Made by a program: the position numbers and the translations under genes. From the NCBI GenBank assembly GCA_043228905.1, contig JBHGNT010000014.1:10168001-10232000 (forward strand): 64,000 nucleotides of DNA, given 5' to 3'. Source of the DNA: Azolla caroliniana. Its lineage: Eukaryota; Plantae; Polypodiophyta. The notes under the pieces were generated by a model. It worked only from the letters and a program-made list of their open reading frames with translations, did not search any database and was not told where the DNA came from. Shown here piece after piece: positions 11,410 through 57,279 of this stretch. Within the stretch, counting starts at the first letter, position 1. Every line of letters starts with the position of its first letter.

Positions 11410-11426
11410 CATGAGTCGGTGTTAAG

Positions 11427-11469: not shown

Positions 11470-11472
<3 letters not shown>

Positions 11473-11623: not shown

Positions 11624-11639
11624 AAGGAGGCAAGGGAGG

Positions 11640-14225: not shown

Positions 14226-14669
14226 TGTCAGGAATAGTACTAAAACAGAGATGGAATTAGTACTAAAGAACAGCAGTACTATTAGTACTAAGAGGACGGG
14301 ACTGCGTAAGATTCCCGAGAGAGGAAGTGAGAAGAGGAGAGAGAGAGATAGCGAGAATGAGAGAGAGAGAGAGATGATGACAACAGCTAATATATTATGT
14401 GAAAAGATAAGTACAAGCGGCTAAGAGGCTTAAGACTGGCGTTGAACCAATTTGGTTCAAAACAATGCCTTGTGCCTCCTTTTATAGTGTTTTAAGGAAT
14501 AATCCTGAAGCTTCTAGAATGTTCCAGAGAGATCTGGAATATACATCAATTTTCTATGATAAAGTATAAATGAAAATAATATCCTACAAAATACAATTCA
14601 TAATCTAATGGTAAGAGCTCGACCCATGTAGCATAAAGTCATGGGTTCGAGTCTTGCCATATCATGACA
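14226..14669 (-). mobile_element. Solo LTR of chromovirus family T1 (444 bp)
   Basis: TGTCA...TGACA, homologous to 33965-34398; TSD CTGAG/TTGAG. Confidence 0.92.
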
Positions 14670-15686: not shown

Positions 15687-15724
<38 letters not shown>

Positions 15725-15743
15725 CATGAGTCGGTGTTAAGCA

Positions 15744-15785
<42 letters not shown>

Positions 15786-20730: not shown

Positions 20731-21599
20731 GTGAGAGGAAACATTCGTTTATTGCAAAAGAAATCGATTCTTTATAAACTTAATCATGTTACAATGGATT
20801 GGATATGAAAATGAGAGATAAATCTTTTAAAGAAAGGAGCCAACAACCATATAAGGAGTGGTCCAATATGAATATGAGAGATAAATTTTATTTTGACAAG
20901 AAAGATTGAGCCCCACCAAGCCAAACCCCGAAGTTTGATATCAATATGAGAGATAATTTGTTTTTAGAATCAGAGAGAGAAGAAGGAAAAAAAATAGCGG
21001 GAAAAAATGGGACATATATTCAGCTCTTTGTTGATCCCCCTTCCTAATGTTACTTTGCATGTCCACTTTTAGTTGCATGACCTCTACTTTTAGTTGCATG
21101 CTTCCATATTTAGTGTTACCAACCGGCAAAGGAGTCCAGAGTGGGAAACAGAGAGCTAACTAAGTAGTAGGAATGTGGTTGTAATTAAGCTATGAGTGTG
21201 GACGGACGGACCGGAAACGGTATGCCGTTCCGGATCCGGACCGATCCCGAACAGGTGCGGATGGCACCGTTTTGTAATACAGACCGGAAACCTATTTAAA
21301 GGCCCGGATACAATGTAATAGTTAGCGGTTAATTAATGAAAGCTTAAGCGTCGTTATCTCTCGGTGTTGATTACCGTTTTGTCTTAATTGTTATATCTTA
21401 CGCGTGTTATGAAAGACGATCCTAATAAGTAACTTAATTAAGTCGGATTAAGCGTTGAAGTCTAATTCGGTTGCCGTAACACCCTTTGGTGAAGTGTCTC
21501 CCGTAGACACCCTGTGTTAGGACATTGTCCGGCCCGAAGAGTTAACACAGTTTTTGGCGACCACGATTCCTGTTTTGCAGCGAACGACGGCACGGATGG

Positions 21600-24500
21600 A
21601 TGTCTAGATCAATGCACGACCTGGTTACAGATCGAACTCGACGCCTTGCCGAAAGGCAAAGGAGACGCGAGGCTTTCCAGCAAGCGGCGCAGGAAATTAG
21701 AGCAGATCGCTCGTTTTCCAACGTAATCCGGAGAGTAGCGGAGGACTCCCTCTGGTTACAGCAAACATCGCACTCGGACGACGGCAACAGCCTAAGCAGC
21801 CTCCGGGAAACCGAATCCCTTCTCCACGCGTTGGCAAACGGAGAAGGCGAAGCAGAGGCCTTTTCAGCATATGAATCGGACTCCGAATGGGAATACAGCA
21901 TGCACACAAACTACCGTAGCAACAACGAAACCTCGGGCGGACCGGAGGACGAAGGATCGGATACCTTACCGACACTGGAACCGGAACCGGAAGTGCTAAC
22001 GCTGGAACCCCCGGAACCAGCAGAGGAAGAACGACCTCCGACACCGGAAGTCGAAGAGGAGAGGCCTCCGTCACCAAAGGAAGAGAAACAACCGACACCG
22101 GAATCAAATCGGGAAAGACCACCGACACTGGAGAAAATTCCGGAACGAGCACCAACACTACCGGCCCGAGCACCGCTACCGGACAAAGACATGTCGTTCC
22201 AGTACTCCAAGTATAGAGATGATCCGGACGCGGAAGCTCATGTGCACGCCTTTGAACAGACATGGGAAGCCAACCATGTGTCCCAGTGATTGACACAGGA
22301 GGAAGAAGAACGCTCTAAGATAGCGGAGTTTGGCGTCACATTGGAGGGACCGGCAGCAAGATGGCGCCGGACGCAGGACCCGTCTACCATCAACACCTTT
22401 GCAGATTTAAAAGCTAAATTCTTGCATTTTTTTCAAAAGGAGGTGGACCAGACCGTAATGGTAGGCTTATTTTATACCATCCGGCAAGAGGCAGGGGAGA
22501 GCATTCCCCAATTTGTCATCCGGTTTCAACGGATGCATAGTCAGCTTGCCCGCGCACCCCCGGAGGAGGAATTACGGACGATATTCCTAAACGTGCTCCA
22601 GGAACCCCTACGCACGGTTTGCACGGTAATCGACTTCCGCACAAGTACCATCGACCAGGTCATTGACCGGGTGAGAGAGATGGAAAAGACAAGCTCCTGG
22701 CTCACACTGGGAGCACTTCAACGGGCGTTACCGTTCAATGAAGACCTCCGGTTTCGGCAAGCAATACAGTGCACAACCTGCTTGAATTCCGGACACTCAG
22801 CTCTAGAATGCACTATGAGGACGCAATGTGTAATCTGTCAATCCAAGAGCCATACAACGGATAGGTGCGAGTATAATCTGTTGAATCGGCAAGCACCGCC
22901 CGTCCGACAAATTGAGCCACGCAGCAGCCGGGATGAAGAAGACGAACGCTGGCGGCGAATGGACCGTGACCGACTGGCATAGGATGTCCGGTATGGCGAG
23001 CGAAAGGAAAATGATGTCCGGTATGGCGATCGACGGGAAAATGATGTCCGGTATGGCAATCGACGAGAAAATGATGTCTGATACGGTGATCGGCGGGATA
23101 ACTATGACCGGCATGATCGGTACCAGGATTACAATCGACGATACGAACATTACGACCGGGAGCACTCCCCCGGGTATCATCAGCAACGGGAGGAATACGG
23201 CAGATATAACGGGGAACCCCGTCAAGAGTACCGTAATAAGAAGAGCTATAACAAAAAACGGCATTTTAAAAAAGGTGGCTACCCCCGGGATCCGGAACAA
23301 GTAGCTCCAAGTAGCCAACCGGTACAAAACCCCGCGCGTATCGTAGGACCTGCCCCGGGTACAACAGACAATGCCGAATCGAGCAATACCCGGAAGGCCT
23401 ACTGCTACTACTGCCGACAGGAAGGCCATTATAGTAACCAATGCCCGGTGAAGAGCTATGAAAAACGACCGGCAGTAAATATGGTAGTCCCTGAGGTGGC
23501 AGACCTGCAGCAGGTGACCACAAGATCGAAGGGCATGGCCAAAGAATGGGAGACACAAGAGACCATACGGAAGCAAGCAACGGAATGGGTAAAGAAAGCA
23601 AACGAGCAGAATGTCACAGACTTACAACAGCAAAAGGAGAACACCGCAGGGCTTGCCGGCGGCAGTCACTCCGAGAACGAGACATGGCAGGCGTTGCAAG
23701 AATGTCAGATTACGTTACCACTAGGAAGAGTCCTACAACTCGTGCCAAGATTCACGGAAGGACTGAAGACGGCCATGACGGCAGGAGAACCATCACCGGC
23801 ACCGGTACTCTTCTCGAATCCGGAGGAGGGACCAACCGTGGTAGACACCAGCAGTCCGGTAATCACTGCCATTGTAAAAGGGAAAGAACTCCCCAGCACA
23901 AAGAACTCCCCGGCACAGTTATAGACGGAGGCTCTGGGGTAAATGTAATAAGCCTCCGAACGTGTGATGACCTAGGAATCCACGAGTGGGAGCATTGTCC
24001 GTTCTGGTTGCGGATGGCCGATACAAGCTCAGTGCGGCCGACAGGATTAATACGGAAATTAGAAGTCATCGTCGGCGGTCATACATTTCACATCTCGGCC
24101 GTAGTGCTACAATTACAGGCACAAGGCGCATACCCGCTATTGCTGGGGCGGCCATGGTTGAAAACGGCACATATCAAACAGAATTGGCGAAAAAATATAA
24201 TTACCTTCCGGCGAGGAAAAGCCAAGGTACGGGTACCAACACAGCCAACGACGAGCACTGGCAAGGAATGTACACCGTTGTATGCGGAATGCGTCAACAT
24301 GCTAGAAGGGTTAGCGGACGAAGAAGAAGCTCAATACCTGCAGGAAAACCCGAAGATCATACCCCTCTTCGAAATTAACATTGCCGAAGCAGTAGCACCA
24401 TACTTACCGCAACCGGAAGAGGCGAAAGCAGAACCGGATAAAGACGCAATCCGGGAGTTACGGCAAGCGCAGGAAGCATTGGAACGAGAAATGGCCGTTT

Positions 24501-27442
24501 CACAGCGTGTAAAAACATCGCAACTGGAAGAGGTGAATTTAGGCACAACGGACGAAGCAAAACCGGTGCACATCGCCAAGGAGATGAAGTCCGGAGACAA
24601 AACGGCGATGATAATACTTCTCACGGAATTTTGCGACGTATTCGCCTGGTCATACGAAGACATGCGAGGACTCGACCCTCAGTTATACTAGCATCAAGTG
24701 CACTTGAGCAAGGATGCAAAACCAGTGGCACAAAGACGGTACCGGATGAATCCCAATTATGCCGCCAAGGTCAAGAAAGAAATCGACAAACTGCTAAGAG
24801 TTGGCTTTATCCGTCCGGTAAAGAAAGCGACATGGCTGAGCCCAATCGTAGTCGTACCGAAGAAGAATGGGAAAATTCGAGTTTGCGTGGACTACCGGAA
24901 ACTCAATGCGGCTACGGTAACGGATGCGTTTCCACTTCCGTTCACAGATGGAGTGTTGGATGCCGTCGCCGGCCATGAGGTCTATAGCTTCCTAGACGGA
25001 TTCAGCGGGTATAATCAGATCCGGATGCACCCCGACGACCAAGAGAAAACGACATTCGTCACCGAATGGGGGGTGTTTGTGGCCGTGGTAAGGATGTTCG
25101 GTCTCAAAACGGCACCGGCAACATTTCAACGAATCATCATGGAAATCTTTGAGGAATATATACCGGCTTTTATGCAGGTTTTCCTGGACGATTTCGCCGT
25201 CTATAGCCAGGAGGAGGACCATTTTCAGCACCTCCGTCTTTGTCTAGAAAAGTGTAGAGCGTACCGGCTAAGCTTGAATCCGGCAAAGTGTGTATTTGGC
25301 GTGTCCAGTGGAACTTTATTAGGACATATTGTGAGCCAGGAAGGTATCACAGTCGACCCGGACAAAGTGAAAGCCATATTAGAAGCACCGGCGCCGGCAA
25401 CGGCAAAGACATTAAGCCGGTTCTTAGGCCAGATCCGGTGGCACAACCGGATGCTCCGATACTTGGCCGACCTAGCTACACCATTGCATGCCGCCGTACA
25501 TCGGACACCATTCCAATGGACTGACACTGAGGATAGGGCTTATAAGGCCCTCAAGGTACTATTGTCGCAGGCACCGGTAGTACAACCTCCAGATTGGAGT
25601 AAAGAATTTCACGTGTTCGTGGACGCCTCCGACATCGCAATCGGAAGCGTACTGATGCAGCTTACGGAACCAAAGTGGTACCGGCCAGTGTACTATGCCA
25701 GCCGGAAGCTATCCCAAGCAGAACGGAACTACTCTACTACGGAACGGGAAGCTCTAGGAATGATCTACAGTGTGACAAAGTTTCGACACTATTTATTGGG
25801 AAGAAAGTTTTCCTTCCATGTAGATCATTTGGCACTCCTTTACCTGGTGTCCAAGGCGTCACTCACCGGCAAATTGGCCCGGTGGACCTTATTGTTACAG
25901 GAGTTCGAGTTTGAAATATTCCACCGACCCGGTGTACAGCATGCCGTTGCGGATTACTTAAGCCGATTGGAGTCCGGAGAGACGGGTGACGGAGTACCGG
26001 ATGAGTTTCCGGATGCAGAGCTGTTTCGAGTCACTACGGAGACGGCAGCAGATGAGACAATGGCCCAGGAAGACAAATGGCTCACAAATATGCACCAGTT
26101 TCTGAGCACAGGACTGCCTCCGGAAGAGTTGAACCGGGACGAACGGAAACGCCTGGCGGTGCAAAGCCGACATTTCTGCTTACTGCAAGACACACTGTAC
26201 CACAAGGGCGCGGACGGCATATGGAGACGGGCGGTGCGCAACGATGAAAAGGAACTGATATTGAGGGAAGCCCACTGCGGATTTGCCGGAGGTCACTATG
26301 CCGGAGATGCGACAGCCAGAAAAATATGGCAAAGTGGCCTATGGTGGCCAACGACATTAAGAGATGCGGTACGGTACGCAAAAGAATGTGACCTATGCCA
26401 GAGAATGGGTCAACCAACGGAGCAGGCTCATATGCCACACCAGCCGGTACTACCCCTGGAGCCATTCCAAAAGTGGGGGTTGGACTTTGTAGGACCATTC
26501 AAACCACCGGCAATGAGAACGGGTAATCGGTACGTTATCGTTGCTATGGATTACTGCACGAAATGGGTGGAGGCCAAAGCTTTACGGGATAACACCGCTG
26601 CGTCAACGGCAAAGTTTCTATATGAGTACATCTGGTGCCATTACGGATGCCCCATTGAATTGATAAGTGACCAAGGGGGGCACTTTCTCGGCCAAGTTGT
26701 GGAAAGCCTGATGACATTCTATGCCGTGGTCCACAAACGAAGCACGTCTTACTATCCACAGGCGAACGGATTAGCGGAATCAACAAACAAGACGCTTCAG
26801 AATATCCTTCGGAAGATCGTCAACGAGAACCGGACGGATTGGGACACAAAGCTACATAGCGCGCTTTGGGCATACCGGACGGCATACAAAACGAGCATCC
26901 GAACAACACCGTTCCGGTTGGCGTTCGGACTCGAGGCGGTCATGCCGGTAGAATTCCAAGTACCGAGCTTACGGATCCAGCTCCGGGAACGGCTGAACGA
27001 GAAAGAGTCGGAGGCAATACGGTTGACACCGTTGTGTGAGCTCAAGGAACATCGACTGGCCAGCATCCTACATTTAGAATTGGAGCAACGGCGACGGAAA
27101 GCATTTGTCGACCGGCATAGGAAAGGTAACGAAAAAATGTTCGAAATCGGCAAACCGGTGTTAGTATTCCAAACCCGGATGGGCAAGATGCCAGGTAAAC
27201 TACGGTTTAGATGGACCGGACCATATTGGCTAACACGGGAATATAATGGGTCCTACCAGTTAGGGACACTGGCCGGTGAAGTACTAGGCAAATGGGTCAA
27301 CGGATTCCGATTGAAGCCATATAGAGGACCAATGCCTAAGAACCCGTTCGAGGAAAGGACTGACGGCAACCACCAAGACGGCAAGCCGGGAACCGAAGTG
27401 AATGAGGCCGGTAAGGGTCCGAGAGGACCAACGGACAAGTGA
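21600..27442 (+). pseudogene. Single gag-pol frame (Gag, 3 CCHC knuckles, protease, RT, RNase H, integrase), broken by 4 stops and a 17-bp duplication near 23885-23918
   Basis: VIDGGSGVN, YSFLDGFSGYNQI, VFLDDF, FVDASD, H...H...C..C, WGLDFVGP, ISDQGGHF, QANGLAE; Athila/Tat-like RT; no chromodomain. Confidence 0.95.
22983..23100 (+). repeat. 30-bp coding tandem repeat, about 4 units (DVRYGDRREN) in Gag
   Basis: GATGTCCGGTATGGCGATCGACGGGAAAAT units. Confidence 0.9.
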
Positions 27443-27825
27443 CGTCACACTAATAATAATAATAACAAAAAAAATATTAAAAAAAAAAAAAAACAATCAT
27501 GCAAAAGCGAGGAATGAATGGATGAAAGAGCGAGGAGCGAAAAGGTACGTAGTGGGCATTTAAAGTGCCACCATAGGACATAATGCTATTTTAAGTACGC
27601 GACATGCACACACTCGAAAAAGGCGCCAGAATGCACAGACAAAAACCACTGCGCATAGAGACCCTCTACTTTCACGAACCCAGGAGCACAGAAGCACCAA
27701 GACGCTGCAAGATCATCAGACGAGAACCTGCGCACAGAGAACCCCCGCCTTCTGAACTCTCTCTGTCTCAACCTCACTCTCATCACCATCCAACCTCGCC
27801 ACCGCCATCCGACCTCGACACAAAC

Positions 27826-30549
27826 ATGGACCCGCAGACGCTGTCGGAAGCCGCTAAGACATGGCTGAAGCAACACGGGCTCGAGGGCTTCTTGATGATG
27901 ATGGAAGTACCGCCACACAAAGAAGCCGACAAAGTGATCAAGGAAATCGATACAGAGTTCATAACGGCAGAGGTGATTCAAGCGTTAACAGGTCTTCCGG
28001 AGCAACTCATCAGGTATTTTGGTGAGTACTCTCTAGCCAGCAAGGGCTACCGGACACAGGGCGGCGGAGATATGTTGTTCCGCGAAATTGCTCGTGTGCT
28101 CCATGAATTCGGCCACGTGCACCCTAGACCCCCTGTCATGCCGCAGAACCGGGCAGGGATGATCATTGCCACCTATGAAGGGATCAAGGTGGATTGGCCG
28201 GTATTGATCGCAGACGGGTTGTGTGCGGCGATCGAGTTCGTCAGAGGCAAAGACGGCAAAGAAGGCCGAGACGGACGAAGGATATAGCACGCCGTAACGC
28301 AGTGGCTCACCTTGCTGGTGCCACCCGTTCAGACCGGCCAGCCCAAGAAGCGAGGAAGAGTGCCGGACGGCACCCCAAGGACGGCTTCCAAACGGCAACA
28401 GCTATTGGCCTCTAAGGCCACTAAGGGAAAGGCGGCGGATGCAGAACAGGCGGCAGCAGGAAGCGGCAGCCGGAAGCACCAAACGGAGGCGCAGGAGAAA
28501 CCACTGGCACGGCCCGTAAAGGTCACACTCCGCCGACTGGTGAATAGAGAAGCGGACCCCTTGGCGGCAAAACTCAATGCCGGAGCTCAGGAGGAGGAAA
28601 TAGAGGAGGAGCCCACGGAGCACCTCCAGCGACAGTCAAGGACCATTGAGACAGCCGGGAAACGTTCGGACCCTCAGACGGAGGGAACACCGGCTCCCCA
28701 TACTGAGACTCCCATGCCAAGGAAGGAACCGGAACCGGTGCATATGGCACCGGAAACAGAAGCCCCGGCACCATCGGCAAGTCCCACCCCGCCAGAGCCG
28801 GAAAGATCACTGTAGCCTCCCTCGGTCAGCCAAGAAGAAGCGCAAGGGGAACCAGGACAACAGGGTGGTCCACGGGCAGAAACGGAACTGCAACTCAGCG
28901 CAACCAGGCAGGACCACCCCTCTTCAAGTGAGCCCATCTGTCAAACCTCCGTGCAAGCACAACAAGGCACCGGTAGCCTATGGCTCCGGTGGATAGGCGA
29001 ACAGATAGCCGGAGCAGTGGGGTATATAGAGGCGGAAGAAAGAGCGCAAAGCGAACGGTTGCTCGTCACAACCGAACAACTAGAGACGGCCCGGTCCAGA
29101 ATACGGTGCCTTGAAAAAGACTTGGATCAGGTCACGACAGAGATGGCCAAAATACGGATCCAATCACCGGTGACTCCGGTAAGTGTACAGAATAAAGAAA
29201 CGGAACGACCTGTACATAGCAATAAGACCCCGGCAACGGAAACCGTTCCGGCGAGAGATGCGGCGCAAGCTCAGGAGCTTGCGGAATTGAGAGAGGAACT
29301 TGCCGCACAAGAAGCGCTAAGGAGCCGTGAACGAGAATTGAAGACGGCAGCCGAAGCCGAATTAAAGAAGACTGCTGAGAACCTCCGCCGGGCAGAGGAG
29401 AGCCTCCGGAAAGGCCATCAAGCGTATGACCGGCTAAAGGAGGAGAAAGACAAAGTGCTGCAGGAAAAGGACAAGTTGTGGAAAACGGCGGAAACAGAGA
29501 TTGAACGGCTAAAGGAAGAGCTCCGCCAGCAGAAGGACCGCGAGGACCGGGCCCGTCGTCAGATCAACGCACGGCTCAAGCAAAAGACGGATGATTTTGA
29601 GCACCTGCACCGGGACTACAAACGGCTGGAAACGGAGCATAAAGAACGGATGGCCGAGCTCCAGCAGGCAGTTGATCGGGCTGCGACGGCGATCGCCGAC
29701 GAACAGGCGGAAAATACAAGACGCTTGGACGAGGTGGAGAAGGTCCGGATGGAACTCTAGAGGCAGCAGCAGGAAGACAAAGAGAGAGCGTCAACAGTAC
29801 TGCAGAAATTACAAAGCACATATCAAAGGCAATTGACGCATTACAAGGCGCAGGCGGAGGACAATGTCAAAATCATCAAACAACTGAAGGAGGAACGGCA
29901 AGCGGCGAAAACGAAATCGCAATTGGGAACGAGCTGGATTCAGTTCATCCTTCGGGCATGGCTGAATCAGACAAAACATTTGATTGATGAAAGCTCCGTA
30001 AAATGGTGGACAAAGTGGGCACAAAACGCGGCGGAACTCCAGTTGCTACGGGCGGATGTGGCAAACCGACGGAAGGAAGGAGATGACTGTTATACGTTGA
30101 CTTCCGAGGACTTCACCGCCATACGGGACGAGCTGGCCGACGACTTCCAAGTCCTGGCAGATGAGCAGCTGGCGCAGGTCAGGCAGCTCGTAGCCCAGCT
30201 GGACGATGATAGGTTGGACGCTCAAATCCAGTTTGAAAGCTACGAGCGGTCCCGGGTGCGGGAAGAAAAAGCACGGGAAGCGGCAACGGTTAACCTTAGT
30301 GATGAGGAATCGTCGCCAGCTGACGGCCAGCCGGGAACCAGTCAACCGGAGACCACTACGACGCAGGGAGCAACAACAGAGACGCCGGTGTCAAAGCCAC
30401 AAACGGAGGAGCAGCCGCAGCAACCACCAACGGACCCGCCGCAGCAGACAGCAACAGAGCAGCAACAGCAACAACAACAACAACCACTTCCAGATGAACC
30501 ATTGGAGCCTCTCGAACAAAGCATTCAGGACATTTTGGACGAAGAATAG
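27826..30549 (+). pseudogene. Extra ORF3 of family A copy 2 (907 codons, three in-frame TAG stops)
   Basis: ORFs 27604, 28312, 28951 and 29833 share one frame and are colinear with 1118-3786. Confidence 0.85.
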
Positions 30550-31375
30550 CAAGGGTCGGTTGTGGATTCGACGTACAAGGTACTATCCCACGGGCATGCC
30601 ATGTGTTACCGACCGGCAAAGGAGTCCAGAGTGGGAAGCAGAGAGCTAATTAAGTAGTAGGAATGTGGTTGTAATTAAGCTATGAGTGAGGACGGACGGA
30701 CCGGAAACGGTATGCCGTTCCGGATCCGGACCGATCCCGAACAGGTGCGGATGGCACCGTTTTGTAATACAGACCGGAAACCTATTTAAAGGCCCGGATA
30801 CAATGTAATAGTTAGCGGTTAATTAATGAAAGCTTAAGCGTCGTTATCTCTCGGTGTTGATTACCGTTCTGTCTTAATTGTTATATCTTACGCGTGTTAT
30901 GAAAGACGATCCTAATAAGTAACTTAATTAAGTCGGATTAAGCGTTGAAGTCTAATCCGGTTGCCGTAACACCCTTTGGTGAAGTGTCTCCCGTAGACAC
31001 CCTGTGTTAGGCCATTGTCCGGCCCGAAGAGTTAACATTTAGTTGCATTCCTTTTACTTTTAGTTGCATGGCCTTGGCTTTTAGTTGCAAGCGACCATCC
31101 GTTCATCCATAAAGTTTAGCCCATGCGCAATTCGTACGTGCGTCGCAACCAAACCGTAGACACGTCCGCGCGCGCAAGTCCCAACCGCACAGTGTACGCC
31201 TCCGCGAACGCGCGCCTCCCAACCATGCCATGTACACATCCACGTAGTCGTCCGCACACACGCGCGCCCGCAGACACGAGTGTCCCGACCAAGTCGCCTT
31301 GAACATTCTGTGCTTCACACATAAACTTAAAGTAATAGGTTCTGGCTCTCCGTATATAATATGGGATCCAATGTT

Positions 31376-45666: not shown

Positions 45667-46102
45667 AGCAACATGCCGATCAGTCGGAAAACAAACAAGT
45701 TCAATTTCACTGGAATGGACTTGGTTGCAGACAAAATGATAGTGCATCTTAATATGCTTGGTCCAGGCGTGGAAGATGGGGTTCTTCGCAAGTTCGATGT
45801 TGCAGATCCTTCAATAGTTTTTTCAGCCATACAGCTTCGCACGTCACAATAGCTGCTCCTCGATGCTCAACCTTTGTGCTCGACTGTCGGTTGTTTCTTG
45901 CTGCTCCAAGCGATTGCGGCACTTCCAAGTGAAAATGCGAAGCCTGATGTAGACCTGCGATTGCTGGCATTTCTGGGCCAATCGGCATTCGTGTAGTCGA
46001 CCAACTGTTCGGCAATACTGGTCCGATATAGCAAACCCTTGTCCTTAGTCCCGCTAACATACCTAAGTATTCGTTGCACACATTGAAGTATTCATAGACA
46101 TA
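45667..46102 (-). pseudogene. Copia RT/RNase H fragment
   Basis: QRILRYVSGT, NRRSTSG, AWSSKKQPTV, HARTKHI-like. Confidence 0.85.
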
Positions 46103-48062
46103 TGCCACACCATGGTGGAATGTAGGGATTGAACCCAAGACCTCCTGGTCTCCATTGGGCAACCCTACCAATTAAGCTACATCAATCTATGCATCCTTGC
46201 ATTAAAATCCAACTTCAATGGTAAATTGAACATTTGAAGTTCCTAGCTTTCTTACATGCATTCTCTTTTCCTAGCTTGGATACATGCATTCTCTATTCCT
46301 AGCTTGCATACATGCATTCTCTATTCCTAGCTAGCATACATACCTCTACCTTCTTGTATAAATACTCAAGTGCACCTTGATTCTAATCAAGGTGAACAAC
46401 ATAGTGTGGTCGATTCTGGAGAAGATACGCCCGGTTCGGAGTTGATCGAGGAGCGCTGGAATTAAGGGCAAGGGATAACAATTACGCACCATAAACAAAA
46501 TCCACACATAGGCGTATTGAGCCATCCTTGTTCTTGACAAATAAAATTGGGGCCCTGGCCAGTGCTTTGGAGGGTTGAATGAAGCCCTTCGCGAGGTTGT
46601 CAGCCAGATATGTGCGGAGAGCCTCAAGTTTGGGTTCCGATAGCCCAAAGATCGGGCCAAATGGTGGATGCTCGTCAAATCGGACTTCAATTGGGCAATC
46701 ATAGAGGCGATGTGTCGGTAACCGATCTGCATTTCGCTTCTCGAATATATCCAAAAAGTTGCTATATCGTGCAGTCAAACTGTTCACAGGAATGGAGATG
46801 TCCCACGACAAAATGGCTAGTGTTGCGACCAAGCCAAAATTGGCTGCAATGGAATCAAGAGAATTTAGTGACCCAGCCGGAATCGGCCGCACCAGAAAAG
46901 TGATGGAGTGATTGCACCAATCCACTATCGGATTGTGGGTCTCCAACCAAGATAGCCCCAAAACAATCGAATGTCCGGGGGGTTGCAATGAGGTAGAAGG
47001 TTAGTACCTCATGGTGGGGCCCGACTTGAAGTACCAACGATGGGGGTTCCGAAAGGTTCAAGAGAGGAGTCTTGACATCGTTTCGGAGACCGCCATGAAA
47101 ATGGTCACATAAGTCTTGGTCATCCCAACTAACATTGCAGGCAATCTGGTGGAACTCTAAAGCGTAGACAAAGGCTGGACGTGAGCCTTGTTTGAAGGAA
47201 TAGAGCTTCGTGAGTATTGTTCGTCATCGGTATGTCTCGCTGAACGTAGCTTCAAGCTCAGCAAGGAAAATGGTGAAGTTTTCTAAGAGAGGGGATGAGG
47301 TCTCGACCAAGGGTGCAAACCACGTTTGCGCCGGCCCGAAGAAAAGGGTGCCGACGAGGCCGACCCAACAAAAGTCATTAGCATACCGTTGGGGCTGTAA
47401 ACAGTAGATAAGCCGAATTTGATTGATGAAGCTATGAAGATACGCCCTCGTGTCGTTGAATTTGTCGAGTAGGCTAATGGTTGGTTCAAGTACATATGGA
47501 TGGGAAGAGGAAGTGGTTTGGGCTAGGTGCCGACGGCGGTTGTGGCTCGGAGGGTGGTGGGTTTCTTAATGTGACAGACCCGTAATGATTACCGAAGGAT
47601 TTCATTTTCGAGTTGAAGTTGTTGCAAAGCTGCCATTACTTGGTTTAGGTTGTCGACGGAGTCGCACATGGTAGTAAGAAGAGAAAGGTGAACAAATTGT
47701 CACAGACGAGTATAATAGAGTAGAACCAAGATGAAACTAAGAACTAGGAGAGAGGAAAAGAACAAGAACTTGACTTATGATTCCATAACTGATGTTGTTC
47801 ACCTTTATTAGAATCAAGGTGCACCTCAGTATTTATACAAGAAGGTAGAGGTATGTATGCAAGCTAGGAATAGAGAATGCATGTAAGCAAGATAGGAATA
47901 GAAAATGCATGCAAGCTAGGAACTTCCAATGTTCAATCTACCATACATGAAGTTGTATTTTAATGCATGGATGCATAGATGGATGTAGCTTAGTTGGTAG
48001 GGTTGCCCAATGGAGACTACGAGGTCTTGGGTTAAATCCCTACCTTCCACCATGGTGTGGCA
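46103..48062 (-). mobile_element. Chromovirus-like element T2: 5' LTR 47698-48062, gag/protease/RT start, fused at about 46403 to an inverted partial LTR (46103-46402)
   Basis: TGCCA...TGACA LTR; IVLGLSWLETHNP, PILFVKNKDGSIRLCVDF, YPLPLI; left LTR is the reverse complement of 47792-48062. Confidence 0.88.
47980..48052 (+). ncRNA. tRNA-like 73-nt module ending in CCA within the T2 LTR (second copy 46113-46185, minus)
   Basis: TAGCTTAGTTGGTAG (A box/D arm), GAGGTC.TGGGTTCAATCCC (variable loop/T arm in the left copy), acceptor-like TGGATG/CATTCCA plus CCA; anticodon arm not recognisable. Confidence 0.7.
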
Positions 48063-49970
48063 TCTATGATAAGTAAAGTACTCTCAAGTCACAAGCTAAA
48101 TCTTGACTGAAGCATCTTGGAGGAAATCGTTTGCAAACGATTCGGTCAGTGACGCCTACATAGTACAAAGTTTGACCGACTGATCTAACAGCCGAGGGAG
48201 AAGTTCTTCGCGACCGCCGACAAATCAGTGAAGCCGGAGCAAGTCCCTGGATAATCGAACCGGCAACTATTGCAAGAAACCCGGACATATCAAGACCGAT
48301 TGTTGCACCCCCTCAAAGACAAAAAAAATGACAAGGCTCAGAGAGCTTATCACAAGGGCAACTGACAAGAGGAGGTTAACTATGTTGGCTCATCAGTCGA
48401 CGGACGACCTAAACATTTTGTTCATAGAACACTCAGTCGAATCAGAAGTTCTCCTTACAACTGAAGAATCAAGCACATGGCTCCTAGATTTGGGTGCGTC
48501 CTACCATGTGACCTTACACAAATCCCATTTCGGCAATATTCGGCCTAACATTCCGACTCAATCCAAGTCGGAAACTCACAACACTACGCCATAATTGGAA
48601 TCAGCACTACATAGCTCAACCTTCTAGGTGGTTCTACATTAGTACTACACAATGTCTGACATGTACCTGAGCTCTCAAGACCATTGATTTCAGTCGGAAA
48701 ACTTGACGAAGATAGCATCTGTGCCAGCTTCTCATCAAGAGGGTGGACACTGCATAGGGGGAACCTCCTACTTGCTCGAGGTCCAAAAGTACACCTTGTA
48801 CCTACTATATGTCAAACTCAAAGAAGGTGAATTGTTTCTGGTCAATATTTCCGGATCATCCCTATGGCACGGCCGACTTGGACATCTCAGCAAGGCTGGC
48901 ATCACGCATTTTTCCAAAGCCGGATACATCCCCAAACTCTCCTTCTCGAATCACCAATTTTGTGAGCATTGCCAGTAAGGCAAACAAGTCATTGCCTTAC
49001 AGTCAACTAGAGGGCCGAGAGAGACAAGTTTTCTTGAGTTGGTTCATTCAGGCATCTGGGGCTCAATTCCACCTTAGTCTCTCGGGGGCACCTCCTACTT
49101 CATCACATTTATTGACTATTTGACTCGGAAGGTGTGGGCCTATTTGGCCATAACCAAAGATCGAGCATGGTCGAAAATCAAACAGGTCCAAACCTGAAAT
49201 GTCTTCGAACTGATAACGGGGGAGAATTCACCAAATTTTTCTGATAGTGCGGTGTCGAGGTTTTCCTCGCGGATGCGCGGAATGAGGCGGGGCCTCGGGG
49301 GTCTTGTACCGAAGAGCAGGAGAGAAAAGAGAAGGGAGGGGACCCACTACGTGCAAGCGTAGATTCACAGGGACACGGCCCTTCGACACAAAGACGCGAG
49401 TGGGACACCGACGCAGAGAGACACGAATGTACGTATATATATATTAACAAAGACAAACAACAAGAAACACGAGTTCGGTTACAATCGAACAGGCCGGCGA
49501 ACAGATGCCGATGCCTGTTCGTAAACGCTCAGAAAGAAAGGAGCAAGTTGGAGGTGCTGCCGGAAGCACTCGGGCATTCCTCAGAGCAGCGCGAGCCTCC
49601 CGAAACCTACATAGAAAGAAGCTACGGAGCTTTGGAAGAGAGAGAAGTCTTCGGCCGACAATCCGACAGCAGTTCGTCCTCTCTATCCGCGATCCGCTCT
49701 CTCCTCCTCGTCTACCTCCTTTTATAGGCAAGAAAGGAGCCGTTTCCCATTAACTTCCTACCTACCGAATCTACCTACCTAGGATCTTCTATGTACCTAA
49801 ACCTCTCTTATGTACAACATAAGGCGTATGTGCATGAAGAGCCGGTTCCTACGCTCCAGTGCACCGATTCTGCTCGTGGACGGTTTTCTCCACGACATCC
49901 GCCCCCACCTAACCACGCATCCACCGGCATGCGCCAAATTAAGTTGGGACGGAGAAAACCGATCCAGTCT

Positions 49971-52900
49971 TCATTCCCCGCCCGTCAGTTCTTCCTCGGT
50001 TTCGGATCGTTCGTTGTCGCGGTCCAGGTTAACCGGATCCGGCTCGTCGTCGTGACGCTTTTTGAACGATTTGATCCGCTTCCCAGCTACCGGTATCGCC
50101 ATTCTCGTGCCGTCGAGTTCCGCCAGATGGTACGTCCCGTTGTCGTTGGCGCTTTGTACCACGTAAGGCCCGAACCACCTTCTTGCGAACTTCCGTGTTG
50201 CTCGGTGATGGTTGTCGAGGTTGCTGTCATAGACTAGCACCCAGTCGCCTTCCTCGATCTTCTTTGGTCGTAGCCAGTGCGTTCGGTCGAACTGGGCTTT
50301 GTTCCTCGTCCTTGCCACCCGAAGCTTTTCCGTAGCCTGCTCTACGTCCTCTGGTCTTCGCTCGAGCTGCCGTATGCGCGCCGCCAACAGTTCCTCCCAA
50401 CTCATCTCGTCTCTCCAGTCCACGGTTGCCCATGAGGAGATCATACGTTCCATCGGCATGATCGGCTTCTGCCCAAACATGAGCTCTGCCAGCATGAATC
50501 CGATTACCGAACTGTGCGTAGTTCGGTCTGCCCACAACGCGTAAGGCAGCAGTCGCGGCCAGTTCCCGACCTGACCTCCGCATGCCCGAACTAACGCCTT
50601 GATGATCGGTCCGTGTCCGCGTTCCACCTTCCCATTCACCTCCGGATTGTACACAGTGGTAAGCGAGATCTTGACTCCTAGCCGGTTGAACAGCTCCTCG
50701 GCCTCTTCGGCGTCCAACTCCCCGCGATCAGCCACGATCTTCCCGACGCACCCGTACCGGCATATCACGTCCTCGATCAGGAACCGAAATACGGCCGCGG
50801 TCGTTTTGTTCTGAAGGGCTCGGTCTTCCACCTGGTTCGTCAGATCTTCCCGAGCCAGGACCAGATACCGCATCTGTCCTATTCCCATCGGCATCGTCAC
50901 CAGATCTACCATCCATTTGAAGTGGATGGTCGAAGGGTACGTAGGGTGAAGCTCGTCCCGATGTCGGACTATGGAGTGCATCTGACAGCTCTCGCAAGTT
51001 GTCACGAACCGATGCACGTCCCGGTACAGTCCCGGCCACCAGTACTTCCCCTTTATCTTCTCGAACGTGGCCCACGTTCCACGGTGTCCAGCCCAAGGGT
51101 TGTCGTGGTAGGCCGTCAGCAGCTCCTCCTGTTCTTCCTTCATCGCCACCACCCGGAGCGGGACGCCGTTCCTCTTCTTCGGGTGCTTCCATAAGTATCC
51201 GTCCCGGAGAAAGAATCGGTATGCTTTCTTCCGGATCCGGTTGGTCTCATCCCTCGTCCATGACGCATCTGGTGTCATTGTCCTCAAGAAACCACCGATC
51301 TGTAGCCACTCGCCGTCGTACTTGCTCTCGTCGAAGCCGTTAAGTGCCAGAGGGCTCGTCCCATCGGTCGTTACATACGATGCCTCGAAGAAGTCCACGC
51401 CGACTTCTTCGTCCTCCGAAACCATGCCGCCCTCGTCATCAAACCTTGCCCTCGAAAGCATGTCGGCCATGGCGTTGTCCTTTCCGGAAATGTGTCGTAT
51501 TTCCGGGTCCAGGGACTTGATGTACGCTATCCACCTGAGCATCGCCAGGTCCGGTGTCGCGCATCCGGAAACCATGCCAAGAATTGGCAGGCAATCCGTC
51601 TCGATAATCACTTCTGTCCCGATCAGGTAGTCTTTGTCGGCCTTTACTGCCGAAACGATACCCCAGAGTTCGCGTTTAACCTGGGCGTACCCTCATTGTC
51701 GCTCACTGAGGACCTTCGCGCCGAATTGGATCGGGAACCGGGAGCCGTCCTCGTCTTCTTGGTTGACGACCCATCCGATCCCGGTCTGGCTCGTATCCAC
51801 CGTTATGTATACCGGGGTACCCTTCTCGTAGACAGCCTTCCGGAGCGCCGGTGCTGCCGCAAGAGCTTCCTTCAGCTTCCGGACCGACTCTGTGTGCTCG
51901 TCTCGCCACTCGAATTTTCGCCCCTTTTTCAGCAACCCGTATAGCGGCTCCGCAACGTGGGCGTAATGCGGAATCCATATGTGGTAGAATGCGCATGCCC
52001 CCAAGAACCTCCGAACTTCTGTAACCGAGCTACAGTCGGTCTTCATCGCGGAGATGGCTTCTACTTTTGCCGGAGACGGCTTCCGGCCATATGGTCCACA
52101 TAGGTGTCCGACCACCAAGATTTCTGATTGCCCGAAGGCCGATTTCTCCCCGGAGAAGGTGAGCCTCACATCCTCTAGTCTTTGTAGCACCTTCTCGCAG
52201 TCGTCGATGTGTGTTGCCACGAATCGCCGGCATCCGTCCGGCCCGAGTGTCTCGTCCTTCTCTTCCACCGGGCACCCCTTGATCGGGATGTCGTCCAGAA
52301 ATGGCATGGTGATGTCCGGGATGCAATCCCTCAGTACCTTGTTCATTGCATTCACCATGTGGGCCACCGAGTTGGTCCCTCCTTGTGGCAGGGTACACAT
52401 TCGCACTAGGCCGAGGGGAGTTCGCATCGTCGTAATGTCTCTGCTCTCCACGGCTAGCTGGAACTGGTCGTACCCCGAGTACAAATCACCGACCGAGTAA
52501 ATCGACCTTCCGGCGAAGGCCTCCGCGAACTCGTCTATGGTCGGTCCGATTCCTGCGTTCCGAATGGTCACTCTGTTGACCGGCTGCAGGTCTTGAATGA
52601 AGCGTAATGTTCCGTTTTTCTTTGGTACGGTAAACCATCGGTTCGAGTATGGGGCACTCGACGGTTCGAGAATGCCCATATCGACTTTCTGCCTCAATAG
52701 CTCCATCAACTTCGGGATGTGAGCTCTCGGTACTGGAATCGGCTTGAGATTCCACGGCACATGCGGTACCGTGAATATCACCATCGGCTCCACGATTGTC
52801 GGGTCTACGCACCCAATCTCTTCCGGTGAGAATGCGAAGGCTTTCCCGTGCCTTCCGAGCATTCTCCGAAACCAGTCTTCCTCCGTCGGCAGTAGGAACC

Positions 52901-53468
52901 CGCCCCCACCGATTTTGAGCTCCCGGAGCGTCCCGTCAGTGAAGGTGTGTCCTATGCAGACCGGATCTCGTAAACTGGGGTTCGACGCAACCCCTCTGAT
53001 TCGGGACTCGCTGCCCTCCGGTAAGGGTGCCGCGACTGGCCTTACCTTCCGGTCCACAGTCTTGTACTTCGTGCTAACTCGGGCCGTCCGATCCGACCCG
53101 AACCCCTGACTGAAGTTCGCAATGACTTCGTACATTTCTTCGGAACATACCGGTATCGTCCGGTCTTCGTTAAGGTCTTCTCCGGCTAACTTCCTCAGCA
53201 TCCCCAAGGTGTCGTCGAAGGAGACCGCCTCCACGGCTCTGCTGATTTCCTCGTCCGGGCCGAGAACTCCACACACTCGAAGTCGCTCTTCCGCCCTTGC
53301 CTTCTCTCGGCCAACGATGCCGACTATCATACACCCTCCGTCGTTGGAGAAGCAAAATTTTCTACCTATCGTACAAGGTTTCTTCGGTTTCGGTTCTATC
53401 GTACAGCTGTGGGGTCTTTCCTGAGTGTCCGGACTGTCTCGACCCCACGCCTTGGCAGCCCTCTCTAA
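49971..53468 (-). pseudogene. W4 pol (RT, RNase H, integrase) in the -1 frame; one premature TGA at 51693
   Basis: DLYSGYDQF, LPQGGTNSV, PFLDDIPIKG, TVDTS, H...GHRG...CESC, WMVDLV, VADRGE, NGKVERGH, WFGPY. Confidence 0.95.
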
Positions 53469-55590
53469 AAATCCTCCCGGTTCTCGCCACCGAGGGATTC
53501 GCGGTTTCGCTCGTGGTTCGGCCGCACCGTCAGAAATTGGACCGAATGGTGACCGTCCTGGCTTTTGACCCTCGCGTAGGCCGAACCGTTGTCCAACACC
53601 TTGGTCTCCATTCGCGCCGCTATGATGTATGGTTCCCCTAATATGACCAGGTGCGAGGACGTCTCCTGCACGAAGAAGTGCTGGTCAATCTCGACGTCGC
53701 CGATCTTGACTCGCACATTCAGGCAGGCCCCGTGCAGTTCCTCGGTGGCGCGCGTCGCCGCCCGTATCTTCCACCCGTGCTTGGTGTTGATCGGCCATTT
53801 TCCCTTCTTATAGAAGTCCATGGACATCAGGTTTATTTCCGAACCGTGGTCCACCAGTGCCACCACCGGTTCCTGAACATCTCCGATCTTTACCGGGGTC
53901 TCCGTGGTCGCTCGGGCCCAGTGTGGCCTCGAATAGTGGCTCTCCGCCCACTCATCTTCCAGTGCCAAGTCGTCGATGTGCGTCGTCCGCACCTCCACCG
54001 GTCTTTCCGGTTCCGTCTCCGTCGACAGCCTCTTCCGTTTCACCAAGTCCACAATGGAGTCGTGGAACTCCTTCTTGGCGATCCCTAGCACCTCCCGTAA
54101 TGACAACTCCACTTTGCTGTCGAGGATCCGTTCTTCTAGGACCTTTCGTAGGTCCGTGGTCCTTTCTATTTCCGTCCCCAGTCGGTATCCGCCCTTCCTG
54201 GGGTTATGTTGCGCGCTGGACACACCGGCTTCATTCCGTCGTTGCCCGAATCGGGTCTCGTATCGTTGTGAGGGCCCGGCCGCTCCGGCTTTCCCCACTC
54301 GTTTGTCTCCTACCAGAGCCTCGTAGTTCCGACAGGCGACTTCTACGAAGCCCATCTTCTCCTCGACCGGATCGCTCCACCCGGTTATTTCCCAGACCCG
54401 TCTCTCAGCGCGGTCAGTTTCATCTTTCCTTAGCCGTGCGCCGGCGAGGCCTTCCAGCATTGCCGACCAGAATCTGTCTTTGCTCTCCTTTCGGGCCTCG
54501 CTGCCCCCGACCCGAATGCCAGCCGACGCCGAGTAGTGGATGGCCTCCACGTATCGGGCCGCCGCCTCTTCCATCAGTCTCTTCATACCTCCTCGCCCGT
54601 CGTTTCGGTTTAGGGCCCTTCTGGTGTCACCGGCGTGCACCCGGCCTTCCCACAGGTACACCAACCGGTTCCTCAACGCTTCTACGAAATCGCCGCAGTC
54701 CTTCCGAATGTGGCCGACCTCGTCGCACCACATGCACCTGTTCCCTGCTGCCGGCCATCGGTCACGAGCCGGTTCGCCGCCTTCCCTTTGAGTCTGGGCG
54801 ATCTGGAGATCCTTTATCGCCTGCGTCAACTCCTCCAGCGTTGCTCCTCCGGACGAGCTGTTGACCATGCCGGTCGAAGCCAAACCGGTTTCGAGCCACT
54901 CCCGGGTCTCTTCCCTTCGCCCTTGCGGTGCCGGTTCAAGCCTCCTTGCTGTGACAGAGCCCGCACCGGCCGCCCCGTTGTCAGCCTATTCTTGCCGTTT
55001 GTCGAAACGGCCACAGACTCTCTTAACCGCAGCCCAGTTGGTCGTCAGCCCGTCTTCGGTTTCCAGCAAGGAGCCGACTTGATCCCGGTCCCGCTCGTCC
55101 ACCGACTTGACGAACAGTAGGACCCGGCTCGTATCCAGAATGGTTCGGTCAAGCGCCGAGAGGCGCGCAAAGCGTTCTTCAAACTCCCGGAGGAGTGCCG
55201 ACACGTTTCTTCCCTTGCCGGGGGACTCCACCCATTCCATGAAGTCCCGTTTCGAAAGCCGGAGCACGTCGTCCAGCCCGTATTTTTCTAGGAGTCGGCC
55301 TTCGAACTCCTCCCAGGTACGGCTCTCCGCCCGCACCTCGAGCACCTCCGCATGGATGCTCGGCATCGCCACTCGAGGAAACCCGGCAAGACGCCTCTCT
55401 TCCGGAATGTCCCGCATCAGCATTTCTGCCCCGTAGGACGCCAAATACTTCGTGGCATCCTTTCTGCTGAACCGGCCAATCATACCGACGACCACCTCAA
55501 TGGCTCTGTCGAGGGCGCCGGTGCCCTCGCGTGTGCTCAATATCCGATCCACGGCCGAAGCCATGGCCTCCGCAAGATCCGACCCCTTCA
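53465..55590 (-). pseudogene. W4 gag-protease frame (one premature TAG at 54986)
   Basis: CMWCDEVGHIRKDC knuckle; ALVDHGSEINLM and VILGEPY protease motifs; start approximate. Confidence 0.85.
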
Positions 55591-57279
55591 TCTTCTGCTC
55601 TTCTGCCACCTCCTTCACGTCGGGTTCACCAAGATGTCGAGGTTTTCCTCGCGGATGTGCGGAATGAGGCGGGGCCTCGGGGGTCTTGTACCGAAGAGCA
55701 GGAGAGAAAAGAGAAGGGAGGGGACCCACTACGTGCGAGCGTAGATTCACAGGGACACGGCCCTTCGACACAAAGACGCGAGTGGGACACCGACGCAGAG
55801 AGACACGAATGTACGTATATATATATTAACAAAGACAAACAACAAGAAACACGAGTTCGGTTACAATCGAACAGGCCGGCGAACAGATGCCGATGCCTGT
55901 TCGTAAACGCTCAGAAAGAAAGGAGCAAGTTGGAGGTGCTGCCGGAAGCACTCGGGCATTCCTCAGAGCAGCGCGAGCCTCCCGAAACCTGCACAGAAAG
56001 AAGCTACGGAGCTTTGGAAGAGAGAGAAGCCTTCGGTCGACAATCCGACAACACTTCGTCCTCTCTATCCGTGATCCGCTCTCTCCTCCTCGTCTCCCTC
56101 CTTTTATAGGCAAGAAAGGAGCCGTTGCCCATTAACTTCCTACCTACCGAATCTACCTACCTAGGATCTTCTATGTACCTAATCCTCTCTTATGTACAAC
56201 ATAAGGCGTACGTGCATGAAGAGCCGATTCCTACGCTCCGGTGCACCGATTCCGCTCATGGACGGTTTTCTCCACGACAGCGGGATCAGGTGTGAATATA
56301 TGGCACCTCATAGTCTGTAGCAAAATGGATTTGCCTAACAGAACAATCAGACAATTCAGAACCAAATAGTGTTTATGTTCCAACACTCTGGACTAGCGGA
56401 TGGCTTCTACGCAGAGGCCCTACTTATGACAGTACACATAATCAATATGTCTCTAAGTCAACCTCTAGGACTTCGAATACCTTAGGAATTATGGATTGGC
56501 AATAAGCCGAATCACAACAAGCTGAGGATTTTTGGATGTGAGGTAGACGCCCTCATATCGAAAGACAATTGTCAGAACCTCGAATCGAGGTCTAAGAAAT
56601 GCATTGTTCTTAGCTATGGACTACACAGCGAAATCCAATACCGACTCTGAGGCCCCAAGCACAGACAAATCATCCAAAGTTCGGACGTAATGTTGAATGA
56701 GTCAGCCATGCATAAGATGGCCAAAAGGCCTATTAAATTTTGAAGGGTAACTTTCTCAGAAGTGTCATTCCTTCATGACGGCCCAGCCCATAACATGAGT
56801 TTGGTTTCACGGGTAGTTGAATCCTCTAGTACCGAATGGGCTCTAGCCGATTTGACATAGCTGAACGTTTCGGCTCCGGACTATCTGACCCAGACGCCCA
56901 ATTAGGCTAGCCTAGTCATACCAAAGACTATCATAGAGACTGTTGTAACCTCCGCAACGGTACTCTCCTGGAATCTTCTTCACAGACGCAGGCAAGCCAA
57001 CATCATACAAAGAACCACCGGCATCAGCTAATTCGACCACATGGCATCTGGCGATGGAGTCAGAAATGAACTCCATTCGGCAAAACAAGGCTTGGGACCT
57101 AGTCGAATTGCCGAAAACTCGATGTGCTCTTCCGTGCAAGTGGGTCTACAAATTAAAAGAGACGTATGATTCAACCAACCCAAAATGCAAGTCCAGATTA
57201 GTAGCGAAAGGGTTTTGACAAGAATATGGCATTGACTTCGACGAAATGTTTTCATATAAAAAACAACCCTACGCTCTAT

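What the first reader, a model, noticed from the sequence alone, without database searches (positions are those of the whole stretch)
46103..48062. A tRNA-like, CCA-ending module built into the outer end of a chromovirus LTR
Seen: both T2 LTR copies carry a 73-nt sequence (47980-48052; 46113-46185 rc) with a tRNA A box/D arm (TAGCTTAGTTGGTAG), GAGGTC variable loop, B box/T arm (GGGTTCAATCCC), acceptor-like pairing and an encoded CCA. It ends 10 nt from the LTR terminus and is antisense to the element. Known: A/B boxes recruit TFIIIC/Pol III; tRNA genes can act as chromatin barriers; Cassandra TRIMs carry 5S-derived Pol III promoters in their LTRs. Inference: a captured tRNA or SINE head kept as a fixed U3 component, acting as an insulator, an outward/antisense Pol III promoter or a tRNA mimic. 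I do not know of a description of this in chromoviruses.
Basis: partly seen in the sequence, partly recalled or inferred. Interest (0 to 1): 0.82.

Follow-up and report, generated by a model that had tools for sequence, protein, structure and literature searches.

The report
Backward tRNA promoter boxes in LTRs
The end repeats of a group of jumping genes, probably from mosses, carry a backward-facing relic of a tRNA gene that has lost its RNA shape but kept its promoter boxes, so it likely works as a protein docking site that shields the element's own promoter from silencing.

Summary
The module is real: its two copies are the two best hits in the window for a model built from unrelated tRNAs (21.3 and 20.0 bits, next 10.9). 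It is a fixed U3 part of a self-priming Tcn1-type chromovirus group. Among loci fetched by chromodomain alone, an antisense B-box motif lies near the LTR start in 20 of 28 close relatives, 0 of 28 on the sense strand and 0 of 45 distant ones. The boxes are more conserved than inner U3 (0.81 vs 0.58), while the rest of the tRNA is not (0.56). The cloverleaf is not kept, so it is not a tRNA mimic. The CCA is out of register and in 3 of 13 copies. The true LTR end is 9-13 nt further out, and the two window copies are inverted LTRs, probably of two elements. Best reading (inferred): a TFIIIC docking site acting as a chromatin boundary. Some high-copy families lack it, U3 swaps between lineages, and a free-standing SINE-like relative exists in the host. 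The closest published case is Helenus (non-autonomous; the plant family is sense). This scan noted similar modules before in fungal-like genomes (unchecked).

The parts
47698..48071 (-). Complete LTR (about 374 nt) of a Tcn1-type chromovirus copy; outer end reads TA where relatives read TG
   Evidence: about 80% identical to LTRs of L027 and L003
47979..48052 (+). tRNA-derived module, antisense to this LTR (tRNA positions 1-74)
47986..47997 (+). A box
48023..48040 (+). Variable-loop GGTC and B box (48030-48040); this copy has A at 48034 where most copies have C
48050..48052 (+). CCA at tRNA positions 72-74: out of register, not conserved
47830..47837 (-). TATA box of the LTR's own Pol II promoter, about 150 nt from the A box, pointing the other way
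   Evidence: conserved TATA-R block in relatives
47795..47805 (-). Likely start of R: the self-primer
47685..47695 (-). Self-priming site complementary to the start of R (not a tRNA primer site)
   Evidence: the two stretches change together in L005, L009 and L013
46411..47669 (-). Degenerate gag-protease-start of RT, with stops, frameshifts and internal deletions, cut off early in RT
46090..46410 (+). Partial LTR (U3 plus start of R) of a second, oppositely oriented copy, fused to the truncated RT
46113..46186 (-). tRNA-derived module of the left LTR; A box 46168-46179, intact B box 46125-46135
45867..46089 (-). Left flank: end of RT / start of RNase H of a copia element (motif recognised from my own knowledge; Pfam gave no hit on this piece)
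48232..48975 (+). Right flank: zinc knuckle, protease and GAG-pre-integrase pieces of another copia element

Best explanation
The module is a tRNA-derived A/B-box element fixed backwards at the outer end of U3 in a group of autonomous Tcn1-type chromoviruses, and it likely acts as DNA, docking the Pol III factor TFIIIC as a chromatin boundary that would keep flanking heterochromatin off the LTR's own Pol II promoter. SHOWN: tRNA ancestry; fixed place and orientation; retention of the boxes and loss of the cloverleaf; B box kept where the A box decays; self-priming, so no tRNA primer is needed; whole-U3 exchange between pol lineages; absence from some high-copy families. INFERRED: TFIIIC binding, any boundary effect, and the benefit to an element whose chromodomain likely steers it into heterochromatin.
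For: Loci were fetched by chromodomain, not by the module. The antisense variable-loop + B-box motif scores 8 bits or more within the first 110 nt of the LTR in 20 of 28 close loci, 0 of 28 on the sense strand and 0 of 45 distant loci; the background rate is 121 of 8162 windows. With the independent tRNA model, 15 of 25 hits in 27 loci (94 kb) lie antisense at LTR outer ends. Between two subgroups of the window's LTR type (5 and 8 rows), box columns are 0.81 identical, inner U3 0.58 (p=0.0015) and non-box tRNA columns 0.56 (p=0.0002; non-box versus U3 p=0.49). Sliding identity peaks over the module and over TATA-R, with a trough between, in L001/L027, L018/L027 and L017/L033. The motif is kept in intact families whose pol proteins are only 64-75% identical. 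In divergent families the B box scores 12-23 bits while the A box falls to p=0.03-0.66, and the first T4 lies 10 to more than 400 nt beyond the LTR end. B boxes contribute to boundary activity in S. pombe (PMC4502379, passages), and tRNA-derived B2 SINEs form boundaries in mouse (PMC8136502, passages). Group I chromodomains bind H3K9me (PMC5006619, passages).
Against: There are no binding, chromatin or expression data. I found no plant example of a TFIIIC boundary in the searches. The module is dispensable: of 11 high-coverage contigs with long pol frames, 7 carry a strong motif, L009 a weak one, and L007 (only 55 nt of LTR held), L008 and L015 none. Boxes conserved over the anticodon arm is also what SINE families show, and a free-standing family with the same head exists in the host, so part of the signal could be inherited or refreshed from it. 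Alignment columns and copies are not independent, so the p-values overstate certainty. The 32 close loci come from assemblies with neighbouring accession numbers, possibly one campaign, so host breadth is unknown. In S. pombe, deleting the B boxes alone had only a mild effect at the native boundary. The distance between A box and B box is tRNA-like in several families, which also fits a working promoter.
Confidence: 0.45

Rival explanations
1. The module is a working Pol III promoter that fires outwards. It makes antisense RNA over the PPT and pol end from the 3' LTR, and over flanking DNA from the 5' LTR. This RNA would tune the element's own activity and may have seeded the free-standing SINE-like family.
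For: In the window's LTR type both boxes are good and 22-25 nt apart, as in tRNA (A box p=0.003-0.033 in 10 of 10 loci). Free-standing copies begin within a few nt of tRNA position 1: 30 and 25 contigs in run X1, 34 in X4. Their tail shares the letters of window 48057-48066, next to the LTR end. Foamy viruses carry Pol III cassettes with A and B boxes in U3 (PMC3993851, passages).
Against: There is no conserved terminator. The A box is lost in most divergent families, and no RNA fold is conserved. The direction of descent between LTR and free-standing copies is not resolved.
Confidence: 0.2
2. The module is a passenger: a SINE inserted backwards into tolerant U3 sequence and hitchhiked. The apparent conservation of the boxes is inherited from, or refreshed by, SINE families under their own selection.
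For: An abundant free-standing family with the same head exists in the host. High-copy families lack the module. U3 is swapped freely, for example L001/L018 with LTR bins 77-100% identical but 3' coding only 67%. An earlier unchecked note (e1-9852194) called a similar fungal relic a passenger.
Against: In one homologous U3 type the boxes outlast both flanking U3 and the rest of the tRNA. Several U3 types with little other similarity all keep the B box on the same strand, mostly 5-37 nt from the terminus. No poly(A) tail is seen inside the LTR.
Confidence: 0.17
3. The B box serves integration or nuclear positioning: TFIIIC bound to the cDNA end or to resident copies guides integration, or turns LTRs into landing pads for elements that target Pol III genes.
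For: The B box lies close to the integrase attachment end. Retrotransposons have repeatedly evolved to target B-box-bearing tRNA genes (PMC5006619, passages). Unchecked notes e1-10420520 and e1-10420559 report insertions upstream of LTR-borne boxes in fungal-like genomes.
Against: None of the 12 aligned U3s that reach about 70 nt upstream of the module has an insertion there; this is a small sample. Foreign sequence in L004, L014, L026 and L035 lies at the PPT or LTR start, on the wrong side.
Confidence: 0.08
4. The sense strand matters: the 3' end of the genomic RNA is complementary to tRNA D and T arms and pairs with a host tRNA or tRNA fragment, as recalled for the bipartite primer site in the U3 of yeast Ty3 (no call).
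For: The antisense orientation makes the genomic RNA complementary to universal tRNA positions. The variable-loop GGTC, which is outside the B box proper, is also kept (0.86).
Against: The elements self-prime, with compensatory changes. The stem positions that would specify one tRNA vary (T-stem 5' 0.71, acceptor 0.55-0.59). Host tRNAs were not available for a direct test.
Confidence: 0.07
5. The module is a folded tRNA mimic with an encoded CCA end.
For: The D stem is 90% paired, and the whole structure exceeds the slid controls (61% vs 35-54%).
Against: There is no covariation (score 0.076 vs 0.073 shuffled; real tRNAs 0.953). The anticodon stem is 25% paired and the acceptor 63%. The CCA is out of register and in 3 of 13 rows. 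Fold z-scores are about -1.
Confidence: 0.03

Closest known systems
Helenus / TRIMp3 (Kojima 2024, PMC10886601; parts 1-4 of 6 of the text, searched passages and supplement passages read)
   Same: A tRNA-derived sequence in both LTRs, conserved at boxes A and B, not a functional tRNA. One plant family (Selaginella). The paper also notes that 'not a few LTRs' in Repbase contain part of a tRNA, without describing them.
   Different: Helenus families are short non-coding TRIMs with tRNA primer sites, and the module is proposed to transcribe the element. It is in sense orientation in the two LTRs I saw in the supplement. Here the carriers are autonomous and self-priming, keep a TATA box, and carry the module backwards at the outer end, where it cannot make the genomic RNA.
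Tcn1 clade of plant chromoviruses (Neumann 2019, PMC6317226, passages and one supplement row; Novikova 2010, PMC2864245, passages)
   Same: Chromodomain, PROT-RT-RH-INT order, self-priming, TG...CA LTRs, PPT; in plants reported only from mosses and club mosses.
   Different: The passages read mention no tRNA-derived or Pol III element in the LTR. The module marks only a subgroup: 0 of 45 distant loci carry it.
Pol III miRNA cassettes in the U3 of foamy viruses (PMC3993851, passages)
   Same: A and B boxes inside the U3 of an autonomous retroelement that has its own Pol II promoter.
   Different: Those cassettes have terminators and hairpins and make defined miRNAs. This module has tRNA ancestry but no conserved terminator or fold.
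TFIIIC B-box boundaries: S. pombe IR elements and tRNA genes (PMC4502379, passages); mouse B2 SINE boundaries (PMC8136502, passages)
   Same: B-box DNA next to heterochromatin; the proposed mode of action.
   Different: Those are host loci or SINEs with tested function. Here the box is built into a mobile LTR, and binding is untested.
Cassandra TRIM (as summarised in PMC10886601)
   Same: A Pol III gene-derived segment in the LTRs of a land-plant element.
   Different: 5S-derived, non-autonomous, and it drives the element's own transcript.

Membership tests
Tcn1-type chromovirus | PROT-RT-RH-INT polyprotein with C-terminal chromodomain | tested here: met
   Met in relatives: P0002 (73% identical to the window's protease piece) and L001. 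The window copy itself is cut off early in RT.
Tcn1-type chromovirus | Self-priming site instead of a tRNA primer site | tested here: met
   Window 47685-47695 pairs with 47795-47805; the two change together in L005, L009 and L013.
Tcn1-type chromovirus | TG...CA LTRs preceded by a PPT | tested here: met
   Relatives; the outer ends of the window copies are mutated.
Tcn1-type chromovirus | 5-bp target-site duplication | tested here: inconclusive
   None at the inferred ends; a 5-nt repeat exists one register inside both ends, but the flanks are discontinuous.
Tcn1-type chromovirus | Placement with named Tcn1 references in an RT-RH-INT tree | not tested
Helenus / TRIMp3 | tRNA-derived segment in the LTR, conserved at boxes A and B | tested here: met
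Helenus / TRIMp3 | Short, non-coding TRIM | tested here: not met
   L001 has intact gag (382 aa frame) and pol (1243 aa frame) with the module in both LTRs.
Helenus / TRIMp3 | tRNA primer-binding site | tested here: not met
   Self-priming.
Helenus / TRIMp3 | Pol III unit oriented so that it can transcribe the element | tested here: not met
   Antisense in 20 of 20 positive loci; sense in Helenus-1_SMo.
tRNA gene or tRNA mimic | Cloverleaf with covarying stems | tested here: not met
   61% paired, no covariation, versus 94% for real tRNAs.
tRNA gene or tRNA mimic | Rfam gathering score or ARAGORN call | tested here: not met
   14-18 bits against 29; no hit for L019; ARAGORN 0 in the window and in 60 of 60 loci.
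tRNA gene or tRNA mimic | CCA at positions 74-76 | tested here: not met
   At 72-74, in 3 of 13 rows.
Type 2 Pol III promoter | A box and B box at tRNA-like spacing | tested here: met
   Met for the window's LTR type (10 of 10 loci); the A box is weak or lost in most of 12 divergent loci.
Type 2 Pol III promoter | Conserved oligo(T) terminator | tested here: not met
   First T4 lies 10 to more than 400 nt beyond the LTR end on the 3' LTR side.
Type 2 Pol III promoter | Pol III transcription | not testable with these tools
   Only contigs were served, no raw RNA reads.
TFIIIC boundary element | TFIIIC binding and barrier activity | not testable with these tools
   Needs ChIP and reporter assays.
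Ordinary SINE insertion into one LTR copy | Present in few copies | tested here: not met
   20 of 28 close loci. Only 2 listed joints skip part of it, each one low-depth contig of run X4.
Ordinary SINE insertion into one LTR copy | Own tail and target-site duplication inside the LTR | tested here: inconclusive
   No poly(A) in the alignment; a 4-5 nt word on both sides is too short to call.

The most novel reading that the evidence does not exclude
Autonomous chromoviruses carry a swappable Pol III cassette at the LTR end that both insulates their promoter in heterochromatin and fires outwards. One such LTR end gave birth to a free-standing SINE-like family, reversing the usual SINE-into-LTR direction.
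Probability: 0.15. Interest if true: 0.85.

Novelty: new variant of a known kind. Interest (0 to 1): 0.6.

Why it matters
How heterochromatin-seeking retrotransposons keep their promoter usable is an open question. A B box built into the LTR edge would be a self-carried boundary, and because sister families occur with and without it (L019 versus L008), the idea is directly testable in a moss. It extends Pol III-derived LTR parts from short TRIMs to autonomous elements in the opposite orientation, would scatter many TFIIIC sites through the host genome, and links LTR ends to a SINE-like family. It also warns that loose tRNA-like hits in such genomes can be LTR ends.

Tried and rejected
No whole genome is held for this window, so copy numbers and insertion surveys could not be done. 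No RNA holder was listed; run X12 is RNA only by guess and all runs were contigs, so nothing is concluded on expression. Scans of viral contigs and prokaryote genomes gave no loci. Rfam on 20 loci in bulk gave no tRNA hit among 24 matches, and none for the divergent module of L019 alone. BLAST of the module against phages gave only weak hits (E 0.06-8), some on tRNA T arms; these were used only to obtain tRNAs for the model. The tail motif of the free-standing family was not found in any of 87 loci, so no complete copy could be studied. A Helitron or CACTA end was considered for that tail and not supported, because similar A-rich letters continue past the candidate end. A 5-nt repeat on both sides of the window structure was considered as a target-site duplication and rejected because the flanks are discontinuous. 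In the tree (36 of 80 loci) L079 and L035 have long branches and were not interpreted. Four close loci (L004, L014, L025, L026) and three distant ones (L052, L058, L064) were left out of the count for lack of a recognisable LTR start or enough sequence; L026 does carry the module. The score cut-off of 8 bits was chosen. Two distant loci come close to it (L054, L055: 7.6).

Full report
1. The observation. Both stretches are there and are tRNA-like beyond chance. A covariance model built from 30 phage and E. coli tRNAs ranks them first and second of 17 hits in the window plus four loci (21.3 and 20.0 bits; next 10.9). Rfam gives 17.9 and 14.2 bits, under the gathering score of 29, and ARAGORN finds nothing. 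Several details need correcting. In the Rfam register the CCA is at tRNA positions 72-74. The LTR begins with TGTCATAGA right after the PPT in relatives, so the ends are 48071 and about 46090. The right copy's B box carries a change at 48034 that most laid copies lack.

2. The window structure. The two LTR copies are inverted. On the minus strand, a complete LTR (48071-47698) is followed by a self-priming site and a degenerate gag-protease-RT piece that ends early in RT. This is fused at about 46410 to the R region of a partial plus-strand LTR. The flanks are different parts of copia elements on opposite strands (the left label is from my own knowledge of the motif). The simplest reading, inferred, is a deletion between two converging copies. 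The element is Tcn1-like: its relatives have a chromodomain, and the primer site is complementary to the start of R, with the two changing together in three families. Plant Tcn1 elements are reported from mosses and club mosses and are mostly self-priming (PMC6317226, passages and a supplement row), so the host is probably a moss. This is inferred.

3. How widespread the module is. A weight matrix for the variable loop plus B box scores 8 bits or more in the antisense first 110 nt of the LTR in 20 of 28 close loci. It does so in 0 of 28 on the sense strand and in 0 of 45 distant loci; the background is 121 of 8162 windows (seven loci left out, see Tried and rejected). The tRNA model places 15 of 25 hits in 27 loci at these ends. 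L001 has intact gag and pol frames and the module in both LTRs. At family level, 7 of 11 high-coverage contigs with long pol frames have a strong motif, L009 a weak one, and L007 (55 nt held), L008 and L015 none. The nine pol proteins compared are 64-79% identical. The close loci may all come from one sampling campaign.

4. What is conserved. Between two subgroups of the window's LTR type, box columns are 0.81 identical, inner U3 0.58 and the remaining tRNA columns 0.56 (p=0.0015 and 0.0002; columns are not independent). The cloverleaf is 61% paired with no covariation and a 25% anticodon stem, against 94% and strong covariation in real tRNAs. The terminal ACCA is in 3 of 13 rows. In 12 divergent loci the A box is significant at 0.05 in only one; five keep a GG at the tRNA distance of 25-26 nt from the variable loop. 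The B box stays strong in most. No terminator is conserved. What is kept is therefore the DNA signal, above all the B box, mostly 5-37 nt from the terminus.

5. Movement. LTR type does not follow the tree of the 3' coding region. L001 and L018 share U3 with 67% coding identity; L019 and L005 share U3 with 64%; L019 and L008 are 83% identical in coding, but L008 has a short U3 without the module. Metagenome contigs of repeats can be chimeric, but L018 and L022 from two assemblies agree. Laying public runs on the module shows many contigs that leave the LTR at tRNA position 1 (30 and 25 in X1, 34 in X4) and after 48050 (16 in X1). Single contigs are foreign on both sides (X12 record 9, X13 record 18). 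This points to a short, free-standing, SINE-like family with the same head, often behind simple repeats. Its tail shares the letters of window 48057-48066 beside the LTR end. Because the terminal TGTCA is common to families with and without the module, descent from the LTR end is possible; recapture from the SINE is not excluded. No full copy was obtained.

6. Mechanism. I favour a TFIIIC docking site acting as a boundary for the Pol II promoter about 150-200 nt inside (0.45). B boxes contribute to boundary activity in S. pombe (PMC4502379, passages), B2 SINEs form boundaries in mouse (PMC8136502, passages), and group I chromodomains bind H3K9me (PMC5006619, passages). Binding and barrier activity are untested here. 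Rivals: an outward Pol III promoter (0.2; analogue in foamy virus U3, PMC3993851, passages), a passenger (0.17), a role in integration or as a landing pad (0.08), pairing of the genomic RNA with a host tRNA (0.07; Ty3 analogy recalled), and a tRNA mimic (0.03).

7. Known and new. tRNA-derived LTR parts are known from Helenus TRIMs, and that paper says that not a few Repbase LTRs contain part of a tRNA (PMC10886601, parts 1-4 of 6, passages, supplement passages). This case fails Helenus membership on autonomy, priming and orientation. Ten searches (listings only, except for the papers named) showed no description of an antisense A/B-box module in autonomous chromovirus LTRs. Subscription journals, Repbase entries and unread supplements may hold one. 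Unchecked notes of this scan report similar modules in fungal-like genomes, one read as a landing pad and one as a passenger; I used them as leads only.

8. Verdict. A real, group-wide feature under box-specific constraint; a new variant of a known kind; function inferred. Interest 0.6.

Noticed in passing
window 47977-48050, runs X1, X4, X12, X13: A free-standing, roughly 100-nt SINE-like repeat with the same tRNA-like head, often directly behind (GA)n or (GT)n tracts; its family, tail and partner LINE are undescribed here.
   Followed up: partly
L001/L018, L019/L005, L019/L008, L018/L028: Whole U3 regions appear to be exchanged between distant pol lineages of this group.
   Followed up: partly
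window 47685-47695 and 47795-47805; L005, L009, L013: Self-priming sites with compensatory changes between the start of R and the primer site: direct comparative support for self-priming in plant Tcn1-type elements.
   Followed up: yes
window 46090-48071: Two converging copies are fused between early RT and early R, leaving an inverted-repeat structure with U3 ends on both outsides.
   Followed up: partly
L030-L078: A related group has U3 built from short tandem repeats instead of the module.
   Followed up: no
L079 3868-3885 and L007 4805-4820: A half B box runs straight into the terminal TGACA, as if the module were cut at the attachment site.
   Followed up: no
P0024 C-terminus: A distant pol (46% identical to P0002) reads through into a stretch ending in WGSNPG, which could encode a B-box-like word; possibly the same feature in another host group.
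   Followed up: no
window 9000-19200: A dense cluster of direct and inverted repeats with (GT)n and (CT)n tracts and 70-100 nt repeated units; not examined.
   Followed up: no
window 49253-56279 and 21113-31037: Two other Ty3/gypsy elements with 97-98% identical LTRs; neither has a tRNA-model hit above background.
   Followed up: partly
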